Shown piece after piece: positions 23,484 to 62,501 of a DNA stretch of 64,000 nucleotides; position 1 is the stretch's first letter, and each line of letters begins with the position of its first letter. Source of the stretch: Felixounavirus LF82P1; sequence record OZ035762.1; one strand, 5' to 3'. The notes under the pieces are model-generated. The model saw nothing but the letters and a program-made list of their open reading frames with translations. It ran no database searches and was not told the origin of the DNA. The translations under genes and the position numbers were made by a program.

Positions 23484-25628
23484 ATGAACAAAGTACAGAT
23501 TATTAAAAAGAACGGCTCACTTGAAGAACCTGATATCAAAAAAGTTTTAGCAGCAGTAGCTAAGTCAGCTAACAGGGTTGGATATAAAGAACTTCCACCA
23601 GATGTTACCCAAGCTCTTGAGTCAGCATTCATGAGGATTTTGGTAAAGTCCACTAAGCAGAATAATTTGCTTATCTCGGTAAATGATATTCACAGTATTG
23701 TTGAAGGTGCTTTGGCAGAAGTTAATCACGAGATTTATGAGTCTTACTCAACATACAGAAATTACCGTAAAGAGGTTGCTCAAAATTGGGATGAACTCTA
23801 CCAGAAGACTAAAGATACACTCTTCTTAGGTGACCGTGAAAATGCTAACTTTGACAGCAGTTTAATTTCTACGAAAGGTTCAATTATCCGTGGTTACCTG
23901 ACTAAAGAAATCTTTAAACAGTACCATTTAACACCAGAGGAACTTGAAGCCATTGAAAAAGGATTTATCTATATCCATGATTTAAGAGACCTAATTTTTG
24001 GTGGTATCAACTGTTGCCTGTTTGACATTGGTAAAGTCCTGAAAGGTGGCTTTGAAATGTCTGGCATCGAATATTGTGAACCAAAGTCTGTACTGTCGGC
24101 CTTACAGGTTATAGGTGACGTAGTTCTTTCAGCAACTGCACAGCAATTTGGTGGTTTTACTTTAGCAGAGATTGATAAGGTACTTGTGCCGTATGCTAAG
24201 AAGTCTCTACGCTATCATGCTGAGAAAGCAGCATCTTATGGTATTCCTAAAGAACATTACCACAATTATGTCATGGAGCAGCTACAGATTGAACTGACTC
24301 AAGGTTTCCAGTCACTTGAAATGAAACTAAACACTGTACCTTGTAGCCGTGGGGATTTTGCATTCACAACTTTGACATTCGGGCTACTTGACTCAGATAT
24401 GTCCAATGAAGATAACCGACTGCAATATATGATTGCAAGTACTCTCCTAGATGTTCGTATGAATGGACAAGGTAAGAGCAAGAAACCTGTTGTATTCCCT
24501 AAACTGGTTTATATTTATGACCAGAAGAGACATAATGAGAATATCTGTCAAGGCCACCTGTACAGTAAAGCTATAGAGTGTTGCTCTAAAGCGATGTATC
24601 CAGATTTCTTAAGTGTATCTGGTCATGGTGCTGTAGCAGAGGCTTTTGAGCGTTCTGGCAAGGTTATTTCGCCGATGGGTTGCCGAGCGTTCTTATCTCC
24701 GTATCTTAACGAGAATGGGGAAGAGTTCTACGTTGGTCGTGCTAACATTGGTGCTGTATCTTTGAACTTACCAATGATTTACCAGTATTCTAAAGAGAAT
24801 GGTTTAGATTTCTGGAAAGAGCTTGATAAGTACCTAGAGATGATTCGCAGTTTCCACAAGAAACGCTACGAAATGATTGCTAATATGCCAGCAAGTTCTA
24901 ACCCTCTTGCATTCACACAAGGTGGTCTGTACAAAGGGACTAAGAAACCTACTGACAAGGTTGGTTGGGATATCGTGAAGTCCTTCACAGCTTCTTTTGG
25001 GGTTACTGCTCTTGATGAACTGTCTGTTCTTGCTGAAGGTAAACGACTTCATGAAGTTGGAAGATATAGTTTTGCATACGATGTTCTGGAATACATCAAC
25101 ATGAAAACTGAAGAGTTTAAGAACGAAGATGGCTTCTTGTATGCGGTATATGGCACTCCAGCAGAATCACTTTGTGGAACTCAGTTAAAACAGTTCAGAG
25201 ATATGTTTGGCGTTATTAAAGGTGTCTCTGACAAGGAATACTTTACAAACAGTTTCCATATGAATGTTGCAGCAGACATCTCACCATTTGAGAAGCAGGA
25301 CTTAGAAGAGCCATTCTTCCATATCTGTAGAGGTGGCAGAATCCAGTATGTAAGGGTAGCTAACCCAGAAAACTTAACAGCACTTAAAAGTTGTATTACC
25401 AGAGGGATGTTGAAGGGTTTTTATCAGGGACTTAACTTTGACTTAGCAATCTGTGAACATTGTGGTAACAGACCAAAGGCTGATGTTGAAGAATGTGAGG
25501 TTTGCCATTCACATGATATCTCTGTGATTAACAGGGTGTGCGGGTATCTTGGGTGGACCAAGATTAAAGGTGAATCCCGAATGAACGATGCAAAAATCGC
25601 TGAGATTCGTGATAGAGTCTCTATGTAA
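23484..25628 (+). CDS. nrdD: anaerobic ribonucleoside-triphosphate reductase
   Basis: 714 aa; C-terminal Zn ribbon CEHCG..CEVC and glycyl-radical motif RVCGYLG. Confidence 0.85.
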   Translation: MNKVQIIKKNGSLEEPDIKKVLAAVAKSANRVGYKELPPDVTQALESAFMRILVKSTKQNNLLISVNDIHSIVEGALAEVNHEIYESYSTYRNYRKEVAQNWDELYQKTKDTLFLGDRENANFDSSLISTKGSIIRGYLTKEIFKQYHLTPEELEAIEKGFIYIHDLRDLIFGGINCCLFDIGKVLKGGFEMSGIEYCEPKSVLSALQVIGDVVLSATAQQFGGFTLAEIDKVLVPYAKKSLRYHAEKAASYGIPKEHYHNYVMEQLQIELTQGFQSLEMKLNTVPCSRGDFAFTTLTFGLLDSDMSNEDNRLQYMIASTLLDVRMNGQGKSKKPVVFPKLVYIYDQKRHNENICQGHLYSKAIECCSKAMYPDFLSVSGHGAVAEAFERSGKVISPMGCRAFLSPYLNENGEEFYVGRANIGAVSLNLPMIYQYSKENGLDFWKELDKYLEMIRSFHKKRYEMIANMPASSNPLAFTQGGLYKGTKKPTDKVGWDIVKSFTASFGVTALDELSVLAEGKRLHEVGRYSFAYDVLEYINMKTEEFKNEDGFLYAVYGTPAESLCGTQLKQFRDMFGVIKGVSDKEYFTNSFHMNVAADISPFEKQDLEEPFFHICRGGRIQYVRVANPENLTALKSCITRGMLKGFYQGLNFDLAICEHCGNRPKADVEECEVCHSHDISVINRVCGYLGWTKIKGESRMNDAKIAEIRDRVSM

Positions 25629-25983: not shown

Positions 25984-26375
25984 TTAAGTTGAACAAAAAA
26001 CAGTTAGAGTGGATTAAAGATTATGCCTCAGAGTGTGGCTCTTGCGAAAAGAATCACGTAAGATATTCAACATTCCATACGACCTTCACATTGTACATCA
26101 GCGACAACGTTCTAAGTGATTCTGTAGAAGATGGTGTAGCATTGCCTAATGAATTGCTTGACAAATTAGCTGTAGTCACTGGAACTTGGTCTGAAGAAGA
26201 CGGTCATGAACTATCTAACGATGTTGTTTTCTACAGTCTTGAAAATATTATGAATCCAGAGTACATTATGCTAATGACTTGCGCACAAGATTGTGTACCA
26301 TTACAAAACTTCATTAAAGAACACTGTGAAGAATTTATTACTAAACAGGTTCCTTGTCAGGTGGTGTTTGAATGA
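25980..26375 (+). CDS. hypothetical protein
   Basis: ORF track 131 aa. Confidence 0.45.
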   Translation: MIKLNKKQLEWIKDYASECGSCEKNHVRYSTFHTTFTLYISDNVLSDSVEDGVALPNELLDKLAVVTGTWSEEDGHELSNDVVFYSLENIMNPEYIMLMTCAQDCVPLQNFIKEHCEEFITKQVPCQVVFE

Positions 26376-26671
26376 GTAAAACAATTCGAAGAAAAGGTTT
26401 AAAGAACGTTCATGGACTCTATGAGTGGAGAAATGAGGTACGTAACAGAGAAAATGCTTCAGATGTCTACTTCCATTCTGATATGATGTCCAGAAAAGGT
26501 GGCTCTTATGACTTTACAAGTCAACCTTGTAGGGAGATTAAGAAGGCTACTAAACGTCTTACAAGAACACAAATCAGGCAGCTTTCTAAGACATCCTTCT
26601 TAGATGAAGACTTTGACATTGATAGCAAGTCTCCAAAGAAAGCTGCTAAGAACACTTATATGTATTGGTGA
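26372..26671 (+). CDS. hypothetical basic protein
   Basis: ORF track 99 aa. Confidence 0.45.
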   Translation: MSKTIRRKGLKNVHGLYEWRNEVRNRENASDVYFHSDMMSRKGGSYDFTSQPCREIKKATKRLTRTQIRQLSKTSFLDEDFDIDSKSPKKAAKNTYMYW

Positions 26672-26680
26672 GGTAACTAG

Positions 26681-27166
26681 ATGAATTACATGGAGATTCG
26701 ACCATTTGACACAGCTAATGGTGAAGGGGTTCGTGTAAGCCTCTTCGTAGCTGGTTGTAAGCATCACTGTGAAGGTTGTTTTAACAGGGAGTCTTGGAAG
26801 TTTAATGCTGGTAAAGAGTTCACTTATGCAAACCTTTATGGCATCATTAAGTTAATGGATGATAATGCCATCAGTGGGCTGTCAATACTTGGTGGAGAAC
26901 CTCTGGATGATAGAAACATTCAAGAGGTTACCAACATATGCAAACGTATTAAAACCGTTTACCCAGAAAAATCTATCTGGCTCTGGACAGGTTTTCAGTT
27001 ACATGAAAAAATTCACCTTGATGTGATGAAATATGTTGACGTGGTGATTGATGGTAAGTATGATTCGTCTAAACCAACAGTTAAACCATATCGTGGTTCT
27101 GATAACCAAAACCTCTGGAGAAAAGAGTACGGATGGCAAGGTGATTGTCAGTGGAGAGCAGAGTGA
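26681..27166 (+). CDS. nrdG: anaerobic RNR activating enzyme (radical SAM)
   Basis: 161 aa; CKHHCEGCFN radical-SAM cluster motif. Confidence 0.75.
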   Translation: MNYMEIRPFDTANGEGVRVSLFVAGCKHHCEGCFNRESWKFNAGKEFTYANLYGIIKLMDDNAISGLSILGGEPLDDRNIQEVTNICKRIKTVYPEKSIWLWTGFQLHEKIHLDVMKYVDVVIDGKYDSSKPTVKPYRGSDNQNLWRKEYGWQGDCQWRAE

Positions 27167-56146: not shown

Positions 56147-56518
56147 ATGAAAAACAGAACAAACAAAGGCCAGTTTAAAAAAGGCCAATCTGGAAACCCA
56201 TCTGGAAGACCAAAAGGCTCTCGCAACAAAAGCTCACTTGTAAAAGCTCAACTGACCATTGACAATTCTGCTGAGTTTGCTGCAAAGTTATTTGAAGCGA
56301 TTGTTACAAGGGATGCTGCTAAGCTTGCAGAGTTCGGGTTAAACACAGATGACGTAACCATCAAGAGTATGATTGAGGTCGGTAAAACTATCTTTACTCA
56401 CTCAGCAGGTGAGATGAAAGCACTTGCAGCAGACACTAAGAAGACTCCTGATAATGGTGGTCAACAACAGACAGATAACAAACCAACGTTCTCTGCTGTA
56501 GCGACTCTTAAAAAATAA
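56147..56518 (+). CDS. hypothetical protein with GNPSGRPKG motif
   Basis: 123 aa; N-terminal KKGQSGNPSGRPKGSRNK. Confidence 0.45.
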   Translation: MKNRTNKGQFKKGQSGNPSGRPKGSRNKSSLVKAQLTIDNSAEFAAKLFEAIVTRDAAKLAEFGLNTDDVTIKSMIEVGKTIFTHSAGEMKALAADTKKTPDNGGQQQTDNKPTFSAVATLKK

Positions 56519-56599
56519 TTTTAAAAGGTGTTGACAGACTCTATAAAGTTGCTCTAAAGTCTGTCACATCAAACAACAAATGAGAGAAGAGAGTAAAAT

Positions 56600-58015
56600 A
56601 TGAGCGAATTATTTAAACATGCGCACCTTCATGCAGGTCGAACTGAAAATGGTGCTGTAAACCATACTTCATCAATGTCTGCTCTTGTAGACTTTTACAA
56701 AGCTGCTGGTTCAAGCCGTAGCAATGTAGAAATCTTACCAGACCTGTTCTACAAAGCTTTGCGTGAGGATGTTGATGTTGCAGTTCGTATTTTACTGCAT
56801 ATGCGAGATGTACGAGAAGGTATGGGTGAGCGTAAAGCCTTCAGAACTGTTTTGCTTCAAGCAATTGAAGATAAAGTTTTAGAGCCTACACAGGTTCTTC
56901 GCATTATGGATAAGATTGCAGAACTTGGTCGTTTTGATGACTTCAAAATCTTCGTAGGTACTCGTTTCGAGACAGATGCCTTCAAACATTTAGAAGCAGC
57001 ATTACTAGACCCTGCAACAGCAGGTTTGGCAGCTAAGTGGTTACCACGAGTAAAACCACGTCACAAACAGTTTGTAAAACGTTTCTGCAAGTTTGCAAAC
57101 TTGAGTGAGAAGGAGTATCGCACACTGTTATCTGCACTGTCTGATACGGTTGAGCAAAAAATCTCTGCTAATGAGTTTGGTAAGATTGACTACAGTAAGA
57201 TTCCTTCACTTGCTGCTGCACGTTACCAAAAACTCTTTAACCGTAAAGATGGAGAACGCTACAAAGCTTACATTGAGTCCTTATCAAAGGGCGAGACTAA
57301 GATTAATGCTGGTGCTGTTTATCCATACGATGTGATTAAATCTGTTAAGTATGGTAATGCAGATGTTGCTAATGAGCAGTGGAAAGCACTACCAAACTGG
57401 ATGGCAGAGGGTGAAAACATTCTATGTATGTCTGATGTTTCAAGTTCAATGTCTTGGGTGAATTTTGGTTCAATTACTGCTCTTGATATTGGTGTTTCAC
57501 TTGCATTGTATGTAGCAGAACGTAATACAGGTTGCTTTAAGAATGAGTTGATGGTTTATTCAACAAACCCTCACTTCATTGAACTGAGTGGTGATTTACG
57601 AAACCGTCATCGTCAGGTGATGCGACACGTTGAATATGGCTCAACTAACTTACAAGCAGCTTTTGACCGTATTCTTGAGACAGGTAAAAGAAACAACTTG
57701 ACTCAGAAAGATATGCCAAGTAAGCTTATCATCTTCTCCGATATGGAGTTCAATCAGGTTGATGGAGCTAACGGTCGTACAAACTTTGAAGCAATTCAGA
57801 GTAAGTACAAAAAAGCTGGATATGAGATGCCACAACTGGTATTCTGGTACTTAGCAAACCGTAATGGTACTTGCGAAGTATCTGTTAAGGATAACGGTGT
57901 AGCAATGGTATCAGGGTTCTCTCCAGCCACTTTAAAAGCTCTGCTTGGTGGTGAGAAGTTTGACCCAATCAGTGTAATGCTCAAAGCAGTAATGATTGAC
58001 CGTTATATCTGGTAA
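56600..58015 (+). CDS. Ro60-like protein (TROVE-like N-terminus + von Willebrand A domain)
   Basis: 471 aa; C-terminal vWA MIDAS motif CMSDVSSSM then ..GSTN.. and ..FSDMEF..; N-terminal helical region resembling TROVE. Confidence 0.55.
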   Translation: MSELFKHAHLHAGRTENGAVNHTSSMSALVDFYKAAGSSRSNVEILPDLFYKALREDVDVAVRILLHMRDVREGMGERKAFRTVLLQAIEDKVLEPTQVLRIMDKIAELGRFDDFKIFVGTRFETDAFKHLEAALLDPATAGLAAKWLPRVKPRHKQFVKRFCKFANLSEKEYRTLLSALSDTVEQKISANEFGKIDYSKIPSLAAARYQKLFNRKDGERYKAYIESLSKGETKINAGAVYPYDVIKSVKYGNADVANEQWKALPNWMAEGENILCMSDVSSSMSWVNFGSITALDIGVSLALYVAERNTGCFKNELMVYSTNPHFIELSGDLRNRHRQVMRHVEYGSTNLQAAFDRILETGKRNNLTQKDMPSKLIIFSDMEFNQVDGANGRTNFEAIQSKYKKAGYEMPQLVFWYLANRNGTCEVSVKDNGVAMVSGFSPATLKALLGGEKFDPISVMLKAVMIDRYIW

Positions 58016-58033
58016 AAAGTTTTAAAAAGGGTA

Positions 58034-58062
58034 TTGACAATGTGTTTAATACCCTTTAATAT
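58034..58062 (+). promoter_or_regulatory. sigma70-like promoter TTGACA-N17-TAATAT upstream of tRNA cluster
   Basis: Consensus -35, 17-nt spacer, TAATAT -10. Confidence 0.5.
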
Positions 58063-58180
58063 GTTCTACATAGAAGCGAAATGAGAGCTTTTCTAAGATA
58101 CTGAAAAATATTTTAAAAAAGCTCTTGACAACCACTAAAAAATAATGTTAAAGTGGTTACATAGAGTTTGAAAAGTTTAT

Positions 58181-58257
58181 CTCTGTTTAGCTCAGCTTGG
58201 TAGAGCGTTCCGTTTGGGGCGGTAAGGCCGGAGGTTCAAGTCCTCCAACAGAGACCA
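58181..58257 (+). tRNA. tRNA-Pro (anticodon TGG)
   Basis: acceptor CTCTGTT/AACAGAG, anticodon loop TTTGGGG, T-arm GGAGG-TTCAAGT-CCTCC, CCA encoded. Confidence 0.8.
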
Positions 58258-58264
58258 AATTAAT

Positions 58265-58342
58265 GTTCCAGTAGACAAAATGGTATAGTCACCACTCTTT
58301 CAAAGTGGACATCTGAGGGTTCAAATCCCTTCTGGAACGCCA
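58265..58342 (+). tRNA. tRNA-Glu (anticodon TTC)
   Basis: acceptor GTTCCAG/CTGGAAC, anticodon stem CCACT/AGTGG loop CTTTCAA, T-loop TTCAAAT, CCA. Confidence 0.75.
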
Positions 58343-58344
58343 GT

Positions 58345-58425
58345 TTTGACAGAAGACCAAATACAGCAAACTTAATCTTATTCATCTGAAGGTAAATCGG
58401 ACAAAGAAGAGATTTGGTCTGGTCA
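58345..58425 (+). repeat. structured repeat copy 1 (AGACCAAAT ... ATTTGGTCT helix enclosing about 45-nt insert)
   Basis: 9-bp inverted repeat; conserved AGAAGACC..TACAGCAA box. Confidence 0.45.
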
Positions 58426-58433
58426 TTAAGAAT

Positions 58434-58510
58434 TGCGGGTATAGAGAAAGGGCGTCTCACATGTCTCATTAGCATGGTATCGGCAGGTTCGACTCCTGCA
58501 CCCGCCTCCA
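58434..58510 (+). tRNA. tRNA with anticodon CAT (Met/Ile-lysidine type), atypical acceptor
   Basis: D-stem GAGA/TCTC, anticodon stem CATGT/GCATG loop CTCATTA, T-arm GCAGG-TTCGACT-CCTGC, CCA; 1-72 pairing imperfect. Confidence 0.45.
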
Positions 58511-58583
58511 AATTTACAGAAGACCGTTTACAGCAACATTTATTAAATTTTTAGCGGAAAAATTGAAAGATACGGTCTGGTAA
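58511..58583 (+). repeat. structured repeat copy 2 (AGACCGT ... ACGGTCT helix)
   Basis: Box AAATTTACAGAAGACCGTTTACAGCAA identical to copy 4. Confidence 0.45.
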
Positions 58584-58593
58584 TACTAAACAT

Positions 58594-58670
58594 GGTTAGG
58601 AAGCACATAAGGTATGTGCGGTCGCCTGTTAAGCGAATGGCACAGGGTTCGAATCCCTGACTAACCGCCA
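58594..58670 (+). tRNA. tRNA-Asn (anticodon GTT)
   Basis: acceptor GGTTAGG/ACTAACC, D-stem GCAC/GTGC, anticodon loop CTGTTAA, T-arm CAGGG-TTCGAAT-CCCTG, CCA. Confidence 0.75.
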
Positions 58671-58739
58671 AATTTAGGAGAGAAGCGATTGCTCACCGAT
58701 TTGTAAGGTGCAAGTCCTTAGCCTGAATAGAAATTAAAT

Positions 58740-58827
58740 GTGTCGTTATCCCGTAGATGGTAGCGGTGGGGACTGTAAATCCCTTGTCATTGAGACTCGG
58801 TAGGTTCGACTCCTACACGGCACACCA
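58740..58827 (+). tRNA. tRNA-Tyr (anticodon GTA), long variable arm
   Basis: acceptor GTGTCGT/ACGGCAC, anticodon stem GGGGA/TCCCT loop CTGTAAA, variable arm about 15 nt, T-arm GTAGG-TTCGACT-CCTAC, CCA. Confidence 0.75.
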
Positions 58828-58832
58828 ATAAA

Positions 58833-58910
58833 GGTTATGTAGTTTAATTTGGTTAAAATACTCCCCTGTCACGGGAGATGATGAGGGTTCAAATCCCTTC
58901 GTAACCGCCA
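58833..58910 (+). tRNA. tRNA-Asp (anticodon GTC)
   Basis: acceptor GGTTATG/CGTAACC, anticodon stem CTCCC/GGGAG loop CTGTCAC, T-loop TTCAAAT, CCA. Confidence 0.8.
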
Positions 58911-58965
58911 ATTTTGAGAGGGCTATTTAGCCCCTCCCTTAAAGGGTTCTTACGAGTATCCTTTA

Positions 58966-59046
58966 AAGGAGCAGAAGACCAAATACAGCAAGTTACTTAA
59001 AATTTCAAGCCAATTTAATTTTGAAAAATTTAAAACTTGGTCTGGC
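58966..59046 (+). repeat. structured repeat copy 3 (AGACCAA ... TTGGTCT helix)
   Basis: Same conserved box AGAAGACCAAATACAGCAA; compensatory stem changes vs copies 2/4. Confidence 0.45.
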
Positions 59047-59051
59047 TCAAC

Positions 59052-59190
59052 AAATTTACAGAAGACCGTTTACAGCAAAACTTAAACAATCTATTTCTCG
59101 GTAAAGAAAAGGCGAAGGTTCGATTCCTTCACTCGGCAGATGTCGAGTTGGTGTAATGGTAGCACTTAAGATGATAAACAACGGTCTGGT
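59052..59190 (+). ncRNA. candidate Y-RNA-like element: terminal helix (AGACCGTT/AACGGTCT) enclosing a circularly permuted tRNA-like module
   Basis: Order T-arm GAAGG-TTCGATT-CCTTC (59114-59130), acceptor 3' ACTCGGC, 4 nt, acceptor 5' GTCGAGT (7 bp complementary), D-arm-like GGTGTAATGGTAGCAC; no anticodon arm. Confidence 0.35.
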
Positions 59191-59338
59191 AATTATCTTT
59201 GTAGATAAGTTATTAAGCTTACCTGTGAGTATGCGACCACAAAGGGTGAAAGGGTAAATTCTAGATTTAAACCCAAAAAGGCACATCGCTACAGACCTTA
59301 AGCAAGTCTGGGTAGCTTATCTACAAAGATAATTTAAT

Positions 59339-59414
59339 GGAAGTGTAGCAGAATGGTGATGCGGCAGACTTTTAATCTGACAGGCGATGGGTTCGAATCC
59401 CTCCACTTCTACCA
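59339..59414 (+). tRNA. tRNA-Lys (anticodon TTT)
   Basis: acceptor GGAAGTG/CACTTCT, anticodon loop CTTTTAA, T-loop TTCGAAT, CCA; paralog of Lys-CTT tRNA with compensatory anticodon-stem change. Confidence 0.7.
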
Positions 59415-59418
59415 ATAT

Positions 59419-59495
59419 GGTTCAGTCGCAGATAAGGTAATGCAAGGGTCTCATAAGCCCTATGAATGTGGGTTCGAATCCCATCTGAACCTCCA
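59419..59495 (+). tRNA. tRNA-Met (anticodon CAT)
   Basis: acceptor GGTTCAG/CTGAACC, anticodon stem AGGGT/GCCCT loop CTCATAA, T-arm GTGGG-TTCGAAT-CCCAT, CCA. Confidence 0.75.
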
Positions 59496-59497
59496 AT

Positions 59498-59572
59498 TGT
59501 GGGTTAGCATAAATGGTAATGCAAACGGCTGATAACCGTTAGAAGAGGGTTCGATACCCTCACCTACAACCA
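59498..59572 (+). tRNA. tRNA-Ile (anticodon GAT)
   Basis: acceptor TGTGGGT/ACCTACA, D-stem GCAT/ATGC, anticodon stem AACGG/CCGTT loop CTGATAA, T-arm GAGGG-TTCGATA-CCCTC, CCA. Confidence 0.75.
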
Positions 59573-59587
59573 AGTTCAATAAAGTTG

Positions 59588-59616
59588 TTGACATTGAGAT
59601 GTGACTACTTTATAGT
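59588..59616 (+). promoter_or_regulatory. sigma70-like promoter TTGACA-N17-TATAGT inside tRNA cluster
   Basis: Near-consensus -35 and -10 with 17-nt spacer. Confidence 0.55.
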
Positions 59617-59820
59617 AACCTTAGTTTTCGTTGCGTAGCGTCTATTTTGCAAATTTAAAATAAATGCAAACGACAATGTTTTTCTGGCAGTAGCTTGATA
59701 GGCTAAACACCAGTGAGGTCTTCCAATCCCTCATCAAAGAATTTGGCGTACTCGCCCACGGTATGATTAATAAGGTGGGCATCTTTAAGGGCTTTCTAAG
59801 AGAGTCTTTAAAGATAATTA

Positions 59821-59902
59821 CGGGGCGTATCTCAGCGGTCTTCTAAACCGCCGTTAACCGAGTAAGTGGAGTATGCGGGTTCGAGTCCTGCCGCCTCGAC
59901 CA
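59821..59902 (+). tRNA. atypical tRNA-like gene, anticodon loop CTTCTAA (TCT, Arg-type), D-arm apparently absent
   Basis: acceptor CGGGGCG/CGCCTCG, perfect anticodon arm GCGGT-CTTCTAA-ACCGC, T-arm GCGGG-TTCGAGT-CCTGC, CCA; only 7 nt between acceptor and anticodon stem, 23-nt region before T-arm. Confidence 0.4.
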
Positions 59903-60045
59903 ATTTAGTTAGCAGATTACTTAGACGACCTAAGCGGGTCTTCCTGTAGGGAGGTGGTCTGTATCTCATGTTTTCCAGAACATGTAAATAATCTGAGAAG
60001 GGGCTTTACAGTGTTGAGATAATACGGTAAGCTTCGAATTATAGT

Positions 60046-60128
60046 ATGGGACGATGTTAAGACTCTAAGGCATGAGCAACGGCCTCCAAAACCGTTTCAA
60101 AGGGGTTCAACTCCTCCGTCCCATGCCA
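60046..60128 (+). tRNA. tRNA-Trp (anticodon CCA), atypical extended D region
   Basis: acceptor ATGGGAC/GTCCCAT, anticodon loop CTCCAAA with stem ACGGC/ACCGT, T-loop TTCAACT, CCA; about 8 extra nt before D-stem. Confidence 0.45.
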
Positions 60129-60141
60129 AAGTCTTATTAGG

Positions 60142-60229
60142 GGTAGGTAGCGGCTAATGGCAGCCAAACAGTCTTGAAAACTGTTGCCACTGTAGAGATA
60201 CGGTGAGGGTTCGACTCCTTTACTTACCG
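60142..60229 (+). tRNA. tRNA-Ser (anticodon TGA), long variable arm
   Basis: acceptor GGTAGGT/ACTTACC, 3-bp D-stem, anticodon arm ACAGT-CTTGAAA-ACTGT, about 20-nt variable arm, T-loop TTCGACT; CCA not encoded. Confidence 0.7.
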
Positions 60230-60388
60230 CCTAATAAGATTTTTAAAGCCAAGCTTCATTCGGATGTTGCTTTGGTATCCCTCGTGTATTGTCGTACACA
60301 CTGATAAAACACCTAGTAGGTGTCACGGAGAAGAGATAATATCAAGCTCTCCAAAGGTTCTAGTCACCGGATTAAACAAGACTATGCA

Positions 60389-60412
60389 AAGACCTTTTAG
60401 GTCTTTTTAGAG
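60389..60412 (+). terminator. hairpin + T-run inside tRNA cluster spacer
   Basis: AAGACC-TTTT-AGGTCTT followed by TTTT. Confidence 0.4.
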
Positions 60413-60487
60413 GGCTTCTAAGGTTATTACAGCTTGTTGTGGAACCTTGTTGCTTAGGTTCTTAGAAGTTCTCTAAAAAGATTTAAT

Positions 60488-60565
60488 GGGAGATTGACGG
60501 TAATTGGTAAACCTATCTCGCTTAGAACGAGATGTTTGAGGGTTCGAATCCCTTGTCTCCTACCA
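60488..60565 (+). tRNA. tRNA with anticodon TAG (Leu by anticodon), short variable arm
   Basis: acceptor GGGAGAT/GTCTCCT, anticodon arm ATCTCG-CTTAGAA-CGAGAT, T-arm GAGGG-TTCGAAT-CCCTT, discriminator A, CCA. Confidence 0.6.
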
Positions 60566-62470: not shown

Positions 62471-62501
62471 CTTCTAAGGGTTCTTACGAGAGTCCTTAAA
62501 T

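What the first reader, a model, noticed from the sequence alone, without database searches (positions are those of the whole stretch)
58345..59190. Family of four covarying helices (AGACCR.. / ..YGGTCT) with a conserved AGAAGACC..TACAGCAA box between tRNA genes
Four copies (58345-58425, 58511-58583, 58966-59046, 59052-59190) share the box (C/A)AGAAGACC-NNN-TACAGCAA and a downstream partner ending GGTCTGG. The paired segments differ between copies but stay complementary (CAAAT/ATTTG, CGT/ACG, CAA/TTG, CGTT/AACG), which argues for selection on a helix rather than on sequence. The enclosed inserts vary from about 40 to 110 nt. These could be additional small structured RNAs (YrlB-like), processing sites of the tRNA precursor, or target sites into which the permuted tRNA-like module was inserted.
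Basis: seen in the sequence. Interest (0 to 1): 0.6.

Follow-up and report, generated by a model that had tools for sequence, protein, structure and literature searches.

The report
Phage Y-like RNAs beside Ro-like gene
The four repeats are small structured RNA genes that share one conserved module (a 7-bp stem plus the loop sequence UACAGCAA). This module recurs next to a Ro60-like protein gene in very diverse phages, which suggests an undescribed branch of the Ro/Y-RNA particles, here embedded in the tRNA operon of a Felix O1-like phage.

Summary
Four exact copies of AGAAGACC-NNN-TACAGCAA occur, each followed 35-101 nt later by a complementary strand ending GGTCTGG, and there are none elsewhere in the 64 kb. 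Each copy folds the same way: a 4-bp outer helix, an AGA/G internal loop, a 7-8-bp helix, single-stranded UACAGCAA, then a variable insert.

The same module (7-bp helix, N, N-A/U-CAGCAA, 3' strand, G) lies beside homologs of this gene in 143 of the 169 fetched loci (168 of them related; one is a near-duplicate). These include phages of Listeria, Mycobacterium, Staphylococcus, Enterococcus, Campylobacter and Vibrio, and many MAG contigs. It is strongly strand-specific (144 versus 5) and shows heavy compensatory covariation.

Copy 4 carries a tRNA-like insert in the V-T-acceptor-D order of bacterial YrlA. The LeBron counterpart scores below threshold against Rfam YrlA.

My reading is that these are Y-RNA-like partners of the phage Ro-like protein, released by tRNA processing. 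Binding and function are inferred, not shown. The module is absent from Rfam and from the searched literature, so I rate it a new variant of a known kind.

The parts
56600..58015 (+). Gene for a 471-aa Ro60-like protein (HEAT-repeat ring plus vWA domain with MIDAS residues). It is the proposed protein partner of the RNAs.
58034..58154 (+). Two sigma-70-like promoter matches (TTGACA-17-TAATAT at 58034-58062; TTGACA-18-TAAAGT at 58125-58154) ahead of the tRNA/small-RNA transcription unit. The next promoter-like site is at 59588.
   Evidence: These are consensus matches only, and the total count is not above the shuffle expectation.
58347..58425 (+). Copy 1, short type (79 nt). Outer helix 58347-58350/58422-58425; loop AGA 58351-58353 / G 58421; helix 58354-58361/58413-58420; box UACAGCAA 58362-58369; hairpin insert. 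It lies 4 nt after the CCA of tRNA-Glu and 8 nt before tRNA-Met.
   Evidence: The basal module is invariant and the insert hypervariable among Ounavirinae.
58514..58583 (+). Copy 2, short type (70 nt). Outer helix 58514-58517/58580-58583; AGA 58518-58520 / G 58579; helix 58521-58527/58572-58578; box 58529-58536. It sits between tRNA-Met and tRNA-Asn.
   Evidence: Model R1 (its training alignment A2 includes this copy) scores it 39.1 bits, E 5.8e-7.
58969..59048 (+). Copy 3, short type (80 nt). Outer helix 58969-58972/59045-59048; AGA 58973-58975 / G 59044; helix 58976-58982/59037-59043; box 58984-58991.
59056..59192 (+). Copy 4, tRNA-like type (137 nt). Outer helix 59056-59059/59189-59192; AGA 59060-59062 / G 59188; helix 59063-59070/59180-59187; box 59071-59078; V-like hairpin 59090-59112; T arm 59114-59130; 7-bp acceptor-like hairpin 59131-59148; D arm 59151-59165.
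   Evidence: (family D4). The consensus fold is conserved in Felixouna-, Moogle- and Suspvirus, with compensatory changes in the acceptor-like stem. The T arm matches the tRNA model locally (14.9 bits).

Best explanation
The four elements are genes for small non-coding RNAs that act as Y-RNA-like partners of the Ro60-fold protein encoded just upstream (56600-58015).

Shown:
- All four share a basal module: 5' and 3' ends paired into a 7-8-bp helix (AGACC.../...GGUCU), a conserved single-stranded UACAGCAA on the 5' side of the adjoining loop, and a conserved G after the 3' strand.
- The helix covaries.
- The module is tied to homologs of this one gene family in distant phages.
- The protein is predicted to have the Ro60 fold.
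- One copy carries a tRNA mimic in the same V-T-acceptor-D order as bacterial YrlA.

Inferred:
- The module is the protein's binding site. The variable insert (simple hairpins in copies 1-3, the tRNA-like domain in copy 4) is the part that recruits or mimics something else, as Y RNA loops tether PNPase to bacterial Rsr.
- The RNAs are co-transcribed with the tRNAs from the promoters at 58034/58125. They would be released by RNase P and tRNA 3'-end processing, with the terminal helices stopping exonucleases.
- The particle serves RNA (probably tRNA) quality control, repair or counter-defence during infection.
For: Motif and fold of the four copies.

Association with the gene:
- In 80 viral loci chosen only for the protein, TACAGCAA occurs 95 times on the gene strand and 18 times opposite.
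- 74 of the 95 have the helix in register, against 1 of 18 opposite and 16% of random positions.
- A relaxed scan gives 133 versus 9 hits in 61 of 80 loci. Of these, 108 of 133 lie within 1 kb of the gene and 1 lies inside it.
- 80 bacterial-genome or MAG contigs give 144 versus 5, in 64 of 80 loci.
- The module is also present beside the gene in Listeria LP-064, mycobacteriophage LeBron, Campylobacter F355, Staphylococcus S-CoN_Ph13, Enterococcus EA1, Vibrio V09, Mooglevirus and Suspvirus.

Covariation.

Independence from tRNA genes.

tRNA-like subclass: about 13% of distinct instances have a T-arm hairpin at a constant distance from the box. The LeBron member hits Rfam YrlA at 39.8 bits, E 1.6e-7.

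Operator-like copies: minimal copies end 12-17 nt before the gene's own start codon in several lineages. In Vibrio V09 the 3' strand contains the AUG. This is what a protein-binding site reused as a translational operator would look like.

Experimental hints from a homologous system (Listeria phage CKA15, PMC12282133): very abundant non-coding transcripts lie within 2 kb upstream of the homologous gene, and the protein was detected in virions.
Against: - No binding, transcript-end or abundance data exist for this phage.
- The Ro60 likeness rests on a predicted structure. Pfam TROVE does not match, and sequence searches of the PDB give only E 0.5-2.
- The known Ro-binding motifs (GGUCCGA; GNCGAAN0-1G) are absent.
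- Window copy 4 does not hit Rfam YrlA even at E <= 10.
- The most abundant CKA15 RNA (26,236-26,727) does not coincide with the three-motif region (25,214-25,615).
- The anchored alignment used for covariation was selected for a helix, so its percent-paired value is partly circular. The strand and random-position controls are the independent test.
- Inserts of the short copies are poorly conserved, so they may have no specific effector role.
Confidence: 0.72

Rival explanations
1. The elements are mainly regulatory binding sites. They would be decoys or operators that titrate the Ro-like protein or set its translation, rather than scaffolds with a function of their own in trans.
For: Minimal copies with 8-16-nt loops end 12-17 nt before the start codon of the gene in several lineages. 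In Vibrio V09 the AUG lies inside the 3' strand. Inserts of short copies evolve fast while the basal module is invariant.
Against: In this window the copies lie downstream of the gene in a separate promoter-driven tRNA unit, so they cannot act as its operator. The tRNA-like insert is conserved with compensatory changes and recurs in many lineages, which argues for a functional cargo. This rival still requires protein binding, so it overlaps with the best explanation.
Confidence: 0.12
2. The elements are cis-acting processing or stability structures of the polycistronic tRNA precursor (RNase III/E/P guides or exonuclease blocks), with no protein partner and no stable product.
For: They sit between tRNA genes, 4-10 nt from tRNA ends. 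No terminator lies inside the unit. 13 of the 25 related loci scanned carry tRNA genes, nearly always on the gene strand.
Against: The module occurs beside the DUF2828 gene in 12 of 25 scanned loci that have no tRNA genes. In LeBron it forms a three-RNA unit with its own terminator. A strictly conserved single-stranded octamer and sequence-specific helix positions are not needed for a spacer stem. Only 4 of the many inter-tRNA spacers in the window carry it.
Confidence: 0.07
3. These are real small RNAs, but their partner is another factor (a host protein such as PNPase, RtcB or a tRNA enzyme, or another phage protein). The linkage to the Ro-like gene would then reflect a shared pathway only.
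For: No binding data exist. The tRNA-like domain could be recognised by tRNA enzymes, as shown for YrlA (PMC4201824). An RtcB-like ligase lies 1.3 kb from the gene in Listeria phage LP-064.
Against: The DUF2828 gene was the sole criterion for fetching the loci, and the other annotated neighbours differ among the annotated loci examined. Operator-like copies sit at that gene's own ribosome-binding site.
Confidence: 0.07
4. The repeats are DNA-level features: promoter or operator repeats, recombination or homing sites, or remnants of a mobile element that delivered the inserts.
For: Conserved ends flank variable inserts. TTTACA-like hexamers lie within copies 2 and 4.
Against: The strand bias is strong (144 versus 5; 95 versus 18). 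Pairing is kept through compensatory changes and G-U pairs that would be A-C mismatches on the other strand. No terminal duplications or endonuclease genes were seen next to the copies.
Confidence: 0.02

Closest known systems
Bacterial YrlA / YrlB, the Y RNAs bound by Rsr (Chen et al. 2014, PMC4201824; Rfam RF02553)
   Same: Several small RNAs are encoded within about 1-2 kb of a Ro60-fold gene on the same strand. One carries a tRNA-like domain in the order V, T, acceptor-like hairpin, D, closed by a 5'/3' stem. The others are simple hairpins. The LeBron member scores 39.8 bits against RF02553.
   Different: The protein-binding motif GNCGAAN0-1G is absent and is replaced by a 7-bp helix plus N-A/U-CAGCAA. 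The window copy gives no RF02553 hit. The partner protein is DUF2828/DUF7788, not Pfam TROVE. Here the RNAs are embedded in a tRNA operon.
Metazoan Y RNAs with Ro60 (Stein et al. 2005; PDB 1yvp)
   Different: There is no GGUCCGA bulged helix. The conserved element here is a single-stranded octamer next to the helix. Transcription and processing differ as well.
Phage-encoded canonical Ro60 with Yrl RNAs (Thermus phage phiLo, PMC12135203; mycobacteriophages, CcrColossus and phage G cited there)
   Same: A phage Ro60-fold protein with adjacent Y-RNA-like genes. 9l5y and 9kop are among the best structural matches.
   Different: Those proteins are TROVE-family and their RNAs were identified through the CGAA motif. 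The family here has a different motif and a far wider phage distribution (709 phage records carry the protein).
Putative Y RNAs of Listeria phage CKA15 (PMC12282133)
   Same: It is the same protein family: Listeria Pecentumvirus homologs at about 29% identity. The authors saw abundant non-coding RNAs upstream and proposed Y RNAs. I find three copies of the module 170-330 nt upstream of the gene in LP-064 and in the matching CKA15 segment.
   Different: The paper defined no motif or structure. Its most abundant RNA region lies about 620 nt further upstream than the three-motif region.
Translational operators that mimic a protein's primary RNA ligand (ribosomal-protein operons, ThrRS; cited from general knowledge)
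   Same: Minimal copies of the module lie directly at the ribosome-binding site of the DUF2828 gene in several phages.
   Different: Not seen in this window. Regulation is inferred from position only.

Membership tests
YrlA (Rfam RF02553) | Reaches the family's gathering score (69 bits) in a covariance-model search | tested here: not met
   No YrlA match in the window at gathering, at E <= 10 over 58000-60500, or over 59040-59200 alone. The LeBron counterpart scores 39.8 bits, E 1.6e-7, below threshold.
YrlA (Rfam RF02553) | tRNA-like domain in the order V, T arm, acceptor-like hairpin, D arm, closed by the terminal stem (PMC4201824) | tested here: met
   Copy 4: V 59090-59112, T 59114-59130, acceptor-like 59131-59148, D 59151-59165.
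YrlA / YrlB | GNCGAAN0-1G motif near the 5' end (proposed Rsr site) | tested here: not met
   The 5' parts read CAGAAGACCNNNUACAGCAA in all four copies. There is no GNCGAA.
YrlA / YrlB | Encoded within about 2 kb of a Ro60 ortholog, on the same strand | tested here: inconclusive
   The copies lie 330-1180 nt downstream of 56600-58015 on the same strand. That protein has the Ro60 fold but is not a Pfam TROVE member.
Y RNA (functional definition) | Bound by the Ro60 protein in vivo | not testable with these tools
   Needs immunoprecipitation or EMSA. The only evidence here is genomic linkage and operator-like placement.
Y RNA (metazoan, Rfam RF00019) | Conserved bulged lower-stem helix GGUCCGA / UUGACC | tested here: not met
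   No Rfam Y_RNA hit. The helix here is AGACC.../...GGUCU and has no bulged C.
Ro60 / TROVE protein (partner gene) | Ring of HEAT-like repeats followed by a vWA domain | tested here: met
Ro60 / TROVE protein (partner gene) | Match to Pfam TROVE (PF05731) or significant sequence similarity to solved Ro60 | tested here: not met
   Pfam gives only DUF2828 and DUF7788. phmmer against the PDB finds nothing. The profile search gives Ro60 hits at E 0.56-1.9 only.
Ro60 / TROVE protein (partner gene) | MIDAS residues in the vWA domain (DxSxS ... T ... D) | tested here: met
   D279, S281, S283, T349 and D381 are invariant in 40 homologs.
tRNA (copy 4) | Complete cloverleaf with an anticodon arm, recognised by tRNA finders | tested here: not met
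   Not called by ARAGORN. Rfam tRNA matches only the T arm, at 14.9 bits. The element order is circularly permuted and no anticodon loop is present.

The most novel reading that the evidence does not exclude
DUF2828-type Ro-like proteins and their 'CAGCAA-box' RNAs could form a very large, previously unrecognised class of phage ribonucleoproteins. It would span phages of Proteobacteria, Firmicutes, Actinobacteria and Campylobacterota. One universal protein-binding module would carry interchangeable cargo domains, including anticodon-less tRNA mimics. The particle would act on tRNAs (repair, quality control, or decoying host tRNA-targeting defences), regulate its own synthesis through operator copies of the module, and in some phages travel in the virion.
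Probability: 0.3. Interest if true: 0.85.

Novelty: new variant of a known kind. Interest (0 to 1): 0.72.

Why it matters
Ro60/Y-RNA particles are conserved from bacteria to humans, yet their functions are still poorly understood. Only a few bacterial and phage examples have been studied, all with TROVE-type proteins and CGAA-type RNA motifs.

This work defines a second, sequence-distinct protein/RNA pairing with a clear binding-module consensus. The protein occurs in 709 phage records, and the module beside it was checked in a sample of them, including the tractable Felix O1 group, P100/A511-like Listeria phages, a KVP40-like Vibrio phage and mycobacteriophage LeBron.

It gives annotators a name for recurrent 'empty' spacers in phage tRNA clusters. 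It explains a permuted tRNA-like element. It also makes a direct experiment possible: testing whether the phage Ro-like protein binds the stem-plus-UACAGCAA module, and what the tRNA mimic recruits. The frequent linkage with phage tRNA clusters, and once with RtcB, connects it to the current question of how phages cope with tRNA-targeting host defences.

Tried and rejected
- **Rfam.** Searches at gathering and at E <= 10 found no family for the copies.
- **MAFFT plus RNAalifold on 19 heterogeneous short copies.** This returned no structure, because the variable inserts misaligned the 3' strands. I replaced it with an anchored, gap-free alignment.
- **Covariance model R1 built from that anchored alignment.** It recovered copy 2 (E 5.8e-7) but truncated copies with longer inserts, because the model's window is too short. 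It was not used for the census. Python scans with opposite-strand controls were used instead.
- **Sequence searches of the protein against the PDB.** Both the single-sequence and the profile search were non-significant. Only the structure comparison was decisive.
- **NCBIfam.** Nothing found.
- **Literature searches** for DUF2828, for Felix O1 with Ro60/TROVE/Y RNA, for the octamer, and for 'Ro-like' found no description of the motif.
- **Mapping the most abundant CKA15 RNA onto the three-motif region.** It does not coincide with it.
- **An operator copy upstream of the gene in this window.** Rejected: the palindrome there overlaps the promoter and lacks the box.
- **Promoter repeats or mobile-element ends.** Considered and rejected, on strand bias and RNA-type covariation.

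Full report
**Origin and setting.** The window is a Felix O1-like myovirus, 100% identical over 58000-59400 to Felixounavirus LF82P2 and 98-99% identical to Felix O1 and many relatives. The finding lies at the start of a cluster of 25 tRNA genes on the + strand. None of the four elements is annotated in Salmonella phage Si3 or Shigella phage Sf18.

**The observation.** AGAAGACCNNNTACAGCAA occurs exactly four times (58351, 58518, 58973, 59060) and nowhere else in 64 kb. Even with three mismatches allowed there is only one further match, against 0.86 expected.

- Folded separately, all four adopt one architecture: a 4-bp outer helix, an internal loop AGA / G, an inner helix AGACCnn(n)/(n)nnGGUCU, then single-stranded UACAGCAA and a variable insert.
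- In Suspvirus EP1 the outer helix of copy 2 is UGC/GCA, where the window has UAC/GUA.
- Refined limits are 58347-58425, 58514-58583, 58969-59048 and 59056-59192.

**The neighbouring gene.** The ORF 56600-58015, which ends 330 nt before copy 1 on the same strand, matches Pfam DUF2828 and DUF7788 and PHROG 850 'RNA-binding protein'.

- Sequence searches against solved structures were not significant, although four of the five weak profile hits were Ro60 proteins.
- An AlphaFold2 model built from 40 homologs is confident (pLDDT 89, pTM 0.89).
- Its 11 best Foldseek matches in the PDB are all full-length Ro60/TROVE proteins. vWA-only matches follow.
- The vWA MIDAS residues are invariant in the family.
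- The gene therefore encodes a Ro60-fold protein that current sequence families do not file under TROVE.

**The module follows this gene.** I fetched 80 viral contigs chosen only because they encode a homolog (38-99% identity).

- TACAGCAA occurs 95 times on the gene strand and 18 times on the other.
- 74 of the 95 have a helix of at least 6 bp starting 0-1 nt upstream of the box, against 1 of 18 on the opposite strand and 16% of 3000 random positions.
- Allowing one box mismatch (UUCAGCAA is the common variant), and requiring the register and the trailing G, gives 133 hits against 9, in 61 of 80 loci.
- 108 of the 133 lie within 1 kb of the gene and one lies inside it.
- The module sits beside the gene in phages of quite different groups. 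There are three copies each in Listeria phage LP-064, mycobacteriophage LeBron, Staphylococcus phage S-CoN_Ph13 and Enterococcus phage EA1. Campylobacter phage F355 and Vibrio phage V09 have copies too, and Mooglevirus and Suspvirus have four orthologous copies each.
- In 80 bacterial-genome or MAG contigs with homologs, the count is 144 on the gene strand against 5 opposite, in 64 of 80 loci, with up to seven tandem copies.
- A looser scan over all 169 fetched loci finds at least one copy in 143, most often two.
- 12 of the 25 loci examined have no tRNA genes nearby, so the module tracks the Ro-like gene rather than tRNA genes.
- The protein family itself occurs in 709 phage records. In mycobacteriophages it is annotated 'Ro-like RNA binding protein'.

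**Covariation.** I built a gap-free alignment of 57 distinct instances, anchored on the box and on the end of the 3' strand.

- Seven pairs are 89% paired.
- 165 cells carry changes on both sides, against 61 ± 8 in shuffles.
- The covariation score is 0.84, against 0.23 in shuffles and at most 0.19 when the 3' partners are shifted by 1-3 columns.
- The eighth position is usually unpaired.
- The instances were selected for a helix, so the percent-paired value is partly circular. The strand and random-position controls above are the independent test.
- Features that were not selected for are also conserved: G at -7 paired with C, a purine at -6 paired with a pyrimidine, U at -4 paired with A, a G directly after the 3' strand (64 of 68), and A-rich flanks.
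- The consensus is AA-[A/U]GRNUNN-N-U[A/U]CAGCAA ... NNANYC[U/A]-G.
- G-U pairs, for example AGGCC/GGUCU in Mooglevirus, support the + strand RNA as the paired molecule.

**The inserts.** In copies 1-3 the insert is a simple hairpin.

- Among close relatives the insert of copy 1 is replaced or heavily diverged while the basal module is invariant.
- Copy 4 carries a V-like hairpin, a canonical T arm (GAAGG-UUCGAUU-CCUUC), a 7-bp acceptor-like hairpin and a D arm. This fold is conserved in three Ounavirinae genera, with compensatory changes in the acceptor-like stem.
- The order V, T, acceptor, D is the one described for bacterial YrlA (PMC4201824).
- The LeBron counterpart has a parallel layout and scores 39.8 bits (E 1.6e-7) against Rfam YrlA, below the 69-bit threshold. 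Window copy 4 gives no YrlA hit at all.
- About 13% of distinct instances across lineages have a T-arm-like hairpin, in most at roughly 15-50 nt from the box.
- A typical locus therefore has one tRNA-like RNA plus one to three short ones, which parallels YrlA plus YrlB.

**Supporting observations from other phages.**

- In several lineages a minimal copy (loop of 8-16 nt after the box) ends 12-17 nt before the start codon of the Ro-like gene, directly ahead of its Shine-Dalgarno sequence.
- In Vibrio phage V09 the 3' strand AAUGUCA contains the AUG. This is the placement expected if the protein represses its own translation through a copy of its RNA site. It is positional evidence only, and no such copy exists in this window.
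- In Listeria phage CKA15, a study found the homologous protein in purified virions and three very abundant non-coding RNA regions within 2 kb upstream, and suggested they might be Y RNAs (PMC12282133).
- The three copies I find map to CKA15 25,214-25,615. The paper's most abundant region (26,236-26,727) is a different non-coding stretch further upstream.
- In LP-064 an RtcB-like ligase lies 1.3 kb downstream of the gene, recalling the bacterial rsr-yrlA-rtcB operon.

**Most likely mechanism.**

- Shown: the conserved module, its covariation, its linkage to a Ro60-fold gene, and the YrlA-like cargo of copy 4.
- Inferred, binding: the module is the binding site of the protein.
- Inferred, biogenesis: the RNAs are made from the promoter-like sites at 58034 and 58125, with no terminator before the next promoter at 59588. 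They would be released by RNase P and tRNA 3'-end trimming, because they lie 4-10 nt from tRNA ends, with their terminal helices protecting them.
- Inferred, function: the particle works on RNA, probably tRNA, during infection, by analogy with Rsr/Y RNA/PNPase and the tRNA-damage-regulated rsr-rtcBA operon. The specific function is the weakest step.

**Novelty.** Phage Ro60 homologs with Y-RNA-like genes are known (mycobacteriophages, CcrColossus, phage G, phiLo; PMC4201824, PMC12135203), so the kind is known.

- Not found anywhere: the module (helix plus CAGCAA box), its pairing with the DUF2828 family, its presence in the Felix O1 group, and the operator-like copies.
- Sources checked: Rfam 15 and the searchable literature.
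- I rate it a new variant of a known kind, with high interest because of its breadth and immediate testability.

Noticed in passing
window 59189-59338 (+): Directly after copy 4 and before tRNA-Lys lies a 150-nt element closed by a stem of about 24 bp (arms 59191-59212 / 59313-59334). Its predicted folding is far better than shuffles (-48.3 kcal/mol, z -6.3). It contains a small hairpin, CAGAC-CUUAAGCAA-GUCUG-G, that loosely resembles the box module. No Rfam match.
   Followed up: partly
window 58671-58739, 58911-58968 and 62476-62500 (+): Two other non-tRNA spacers in the cluster also fold better than shuffles (z -2.6 and -2.9). The hairpin AAGGGUUCUUACGAGUAUCCUUUAA at 58942-58966 recurs with 88% identity at 62476-62500.
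   Followed up: partly
window 59821-59899 (+): Rfam calls a tRNA here (31.7 bits, just above threshold) that ARAGORN misses. Shigella phage Sf18 annotates a tRNA-Arg(TCT) at what appears to be the corresponding position in its tRNA cluster.
   Followed up: partly
window 59515-59819 (+): Sub-threshold matches to permuted tmRNA (31.4 bits, gathering score 47) and to tmRNA (16 bits), downstream of the strong promoter-like site at 59588-59616.
   Followed up: no
window 56531-56570 (+): The promoter-like site of the Ro-like gene (TTGACA-18-TAAAGT) overlaps a 9-bp palindrome, UGACAGACU...AGUCUGUCA. Its arms resemble the outer and inner stem sequences of copy 1 but lack the UACAGCAA box. It may be a DNA operator or a coincidence.
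   Followed up: partly
L013 1764-1795; L055 4907-4943; L007 4954-4986; L017 2859-2890; L088 3465-3506: Minimal copies of the module sit at the ribosome-binding site of the DUF2828 gene itself. In Vibrio phage V09 the start codon lies inside the 3' strand. This suggests translational autoregulation by ligand mimicry.
   Followed up: partly
L082 about 2384-2990 (Listeria phage LP-064): A non-coding stretch of about 550-600 nt follows a consensus promoter (TTGACA...TATAGT). It corresponds to the most abundant RNA region reported for phage CKA15 (26,236-26,727). It carries no box module and has no Rfam match.
   Followed up: partly
L082 6813-8024 and 8342-8845: An RtcB-like RNA ligase gene and a DUF1768 gene lie 1.3-2.9 kb downstream of the Ro-like gene in the Listeria phage. 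The arrangement recalls the bacterial rsr-yrlA-rtcB operon.
   Followed up: no
window 56147-56518 (+): A DUF5681 protein gene lies immediately upstream of the Ro-like gene, and this arrangement is conserved in Si3 and Sf18. Its relation to the system is unknown.
   Followed up: no
L031 1293-1616: A permuted tmRNA (Rfam 71.7 bits) is encoded about 3.4 kb upstream of the Ro-like gene in one distant phage contig.
   Followed up: no
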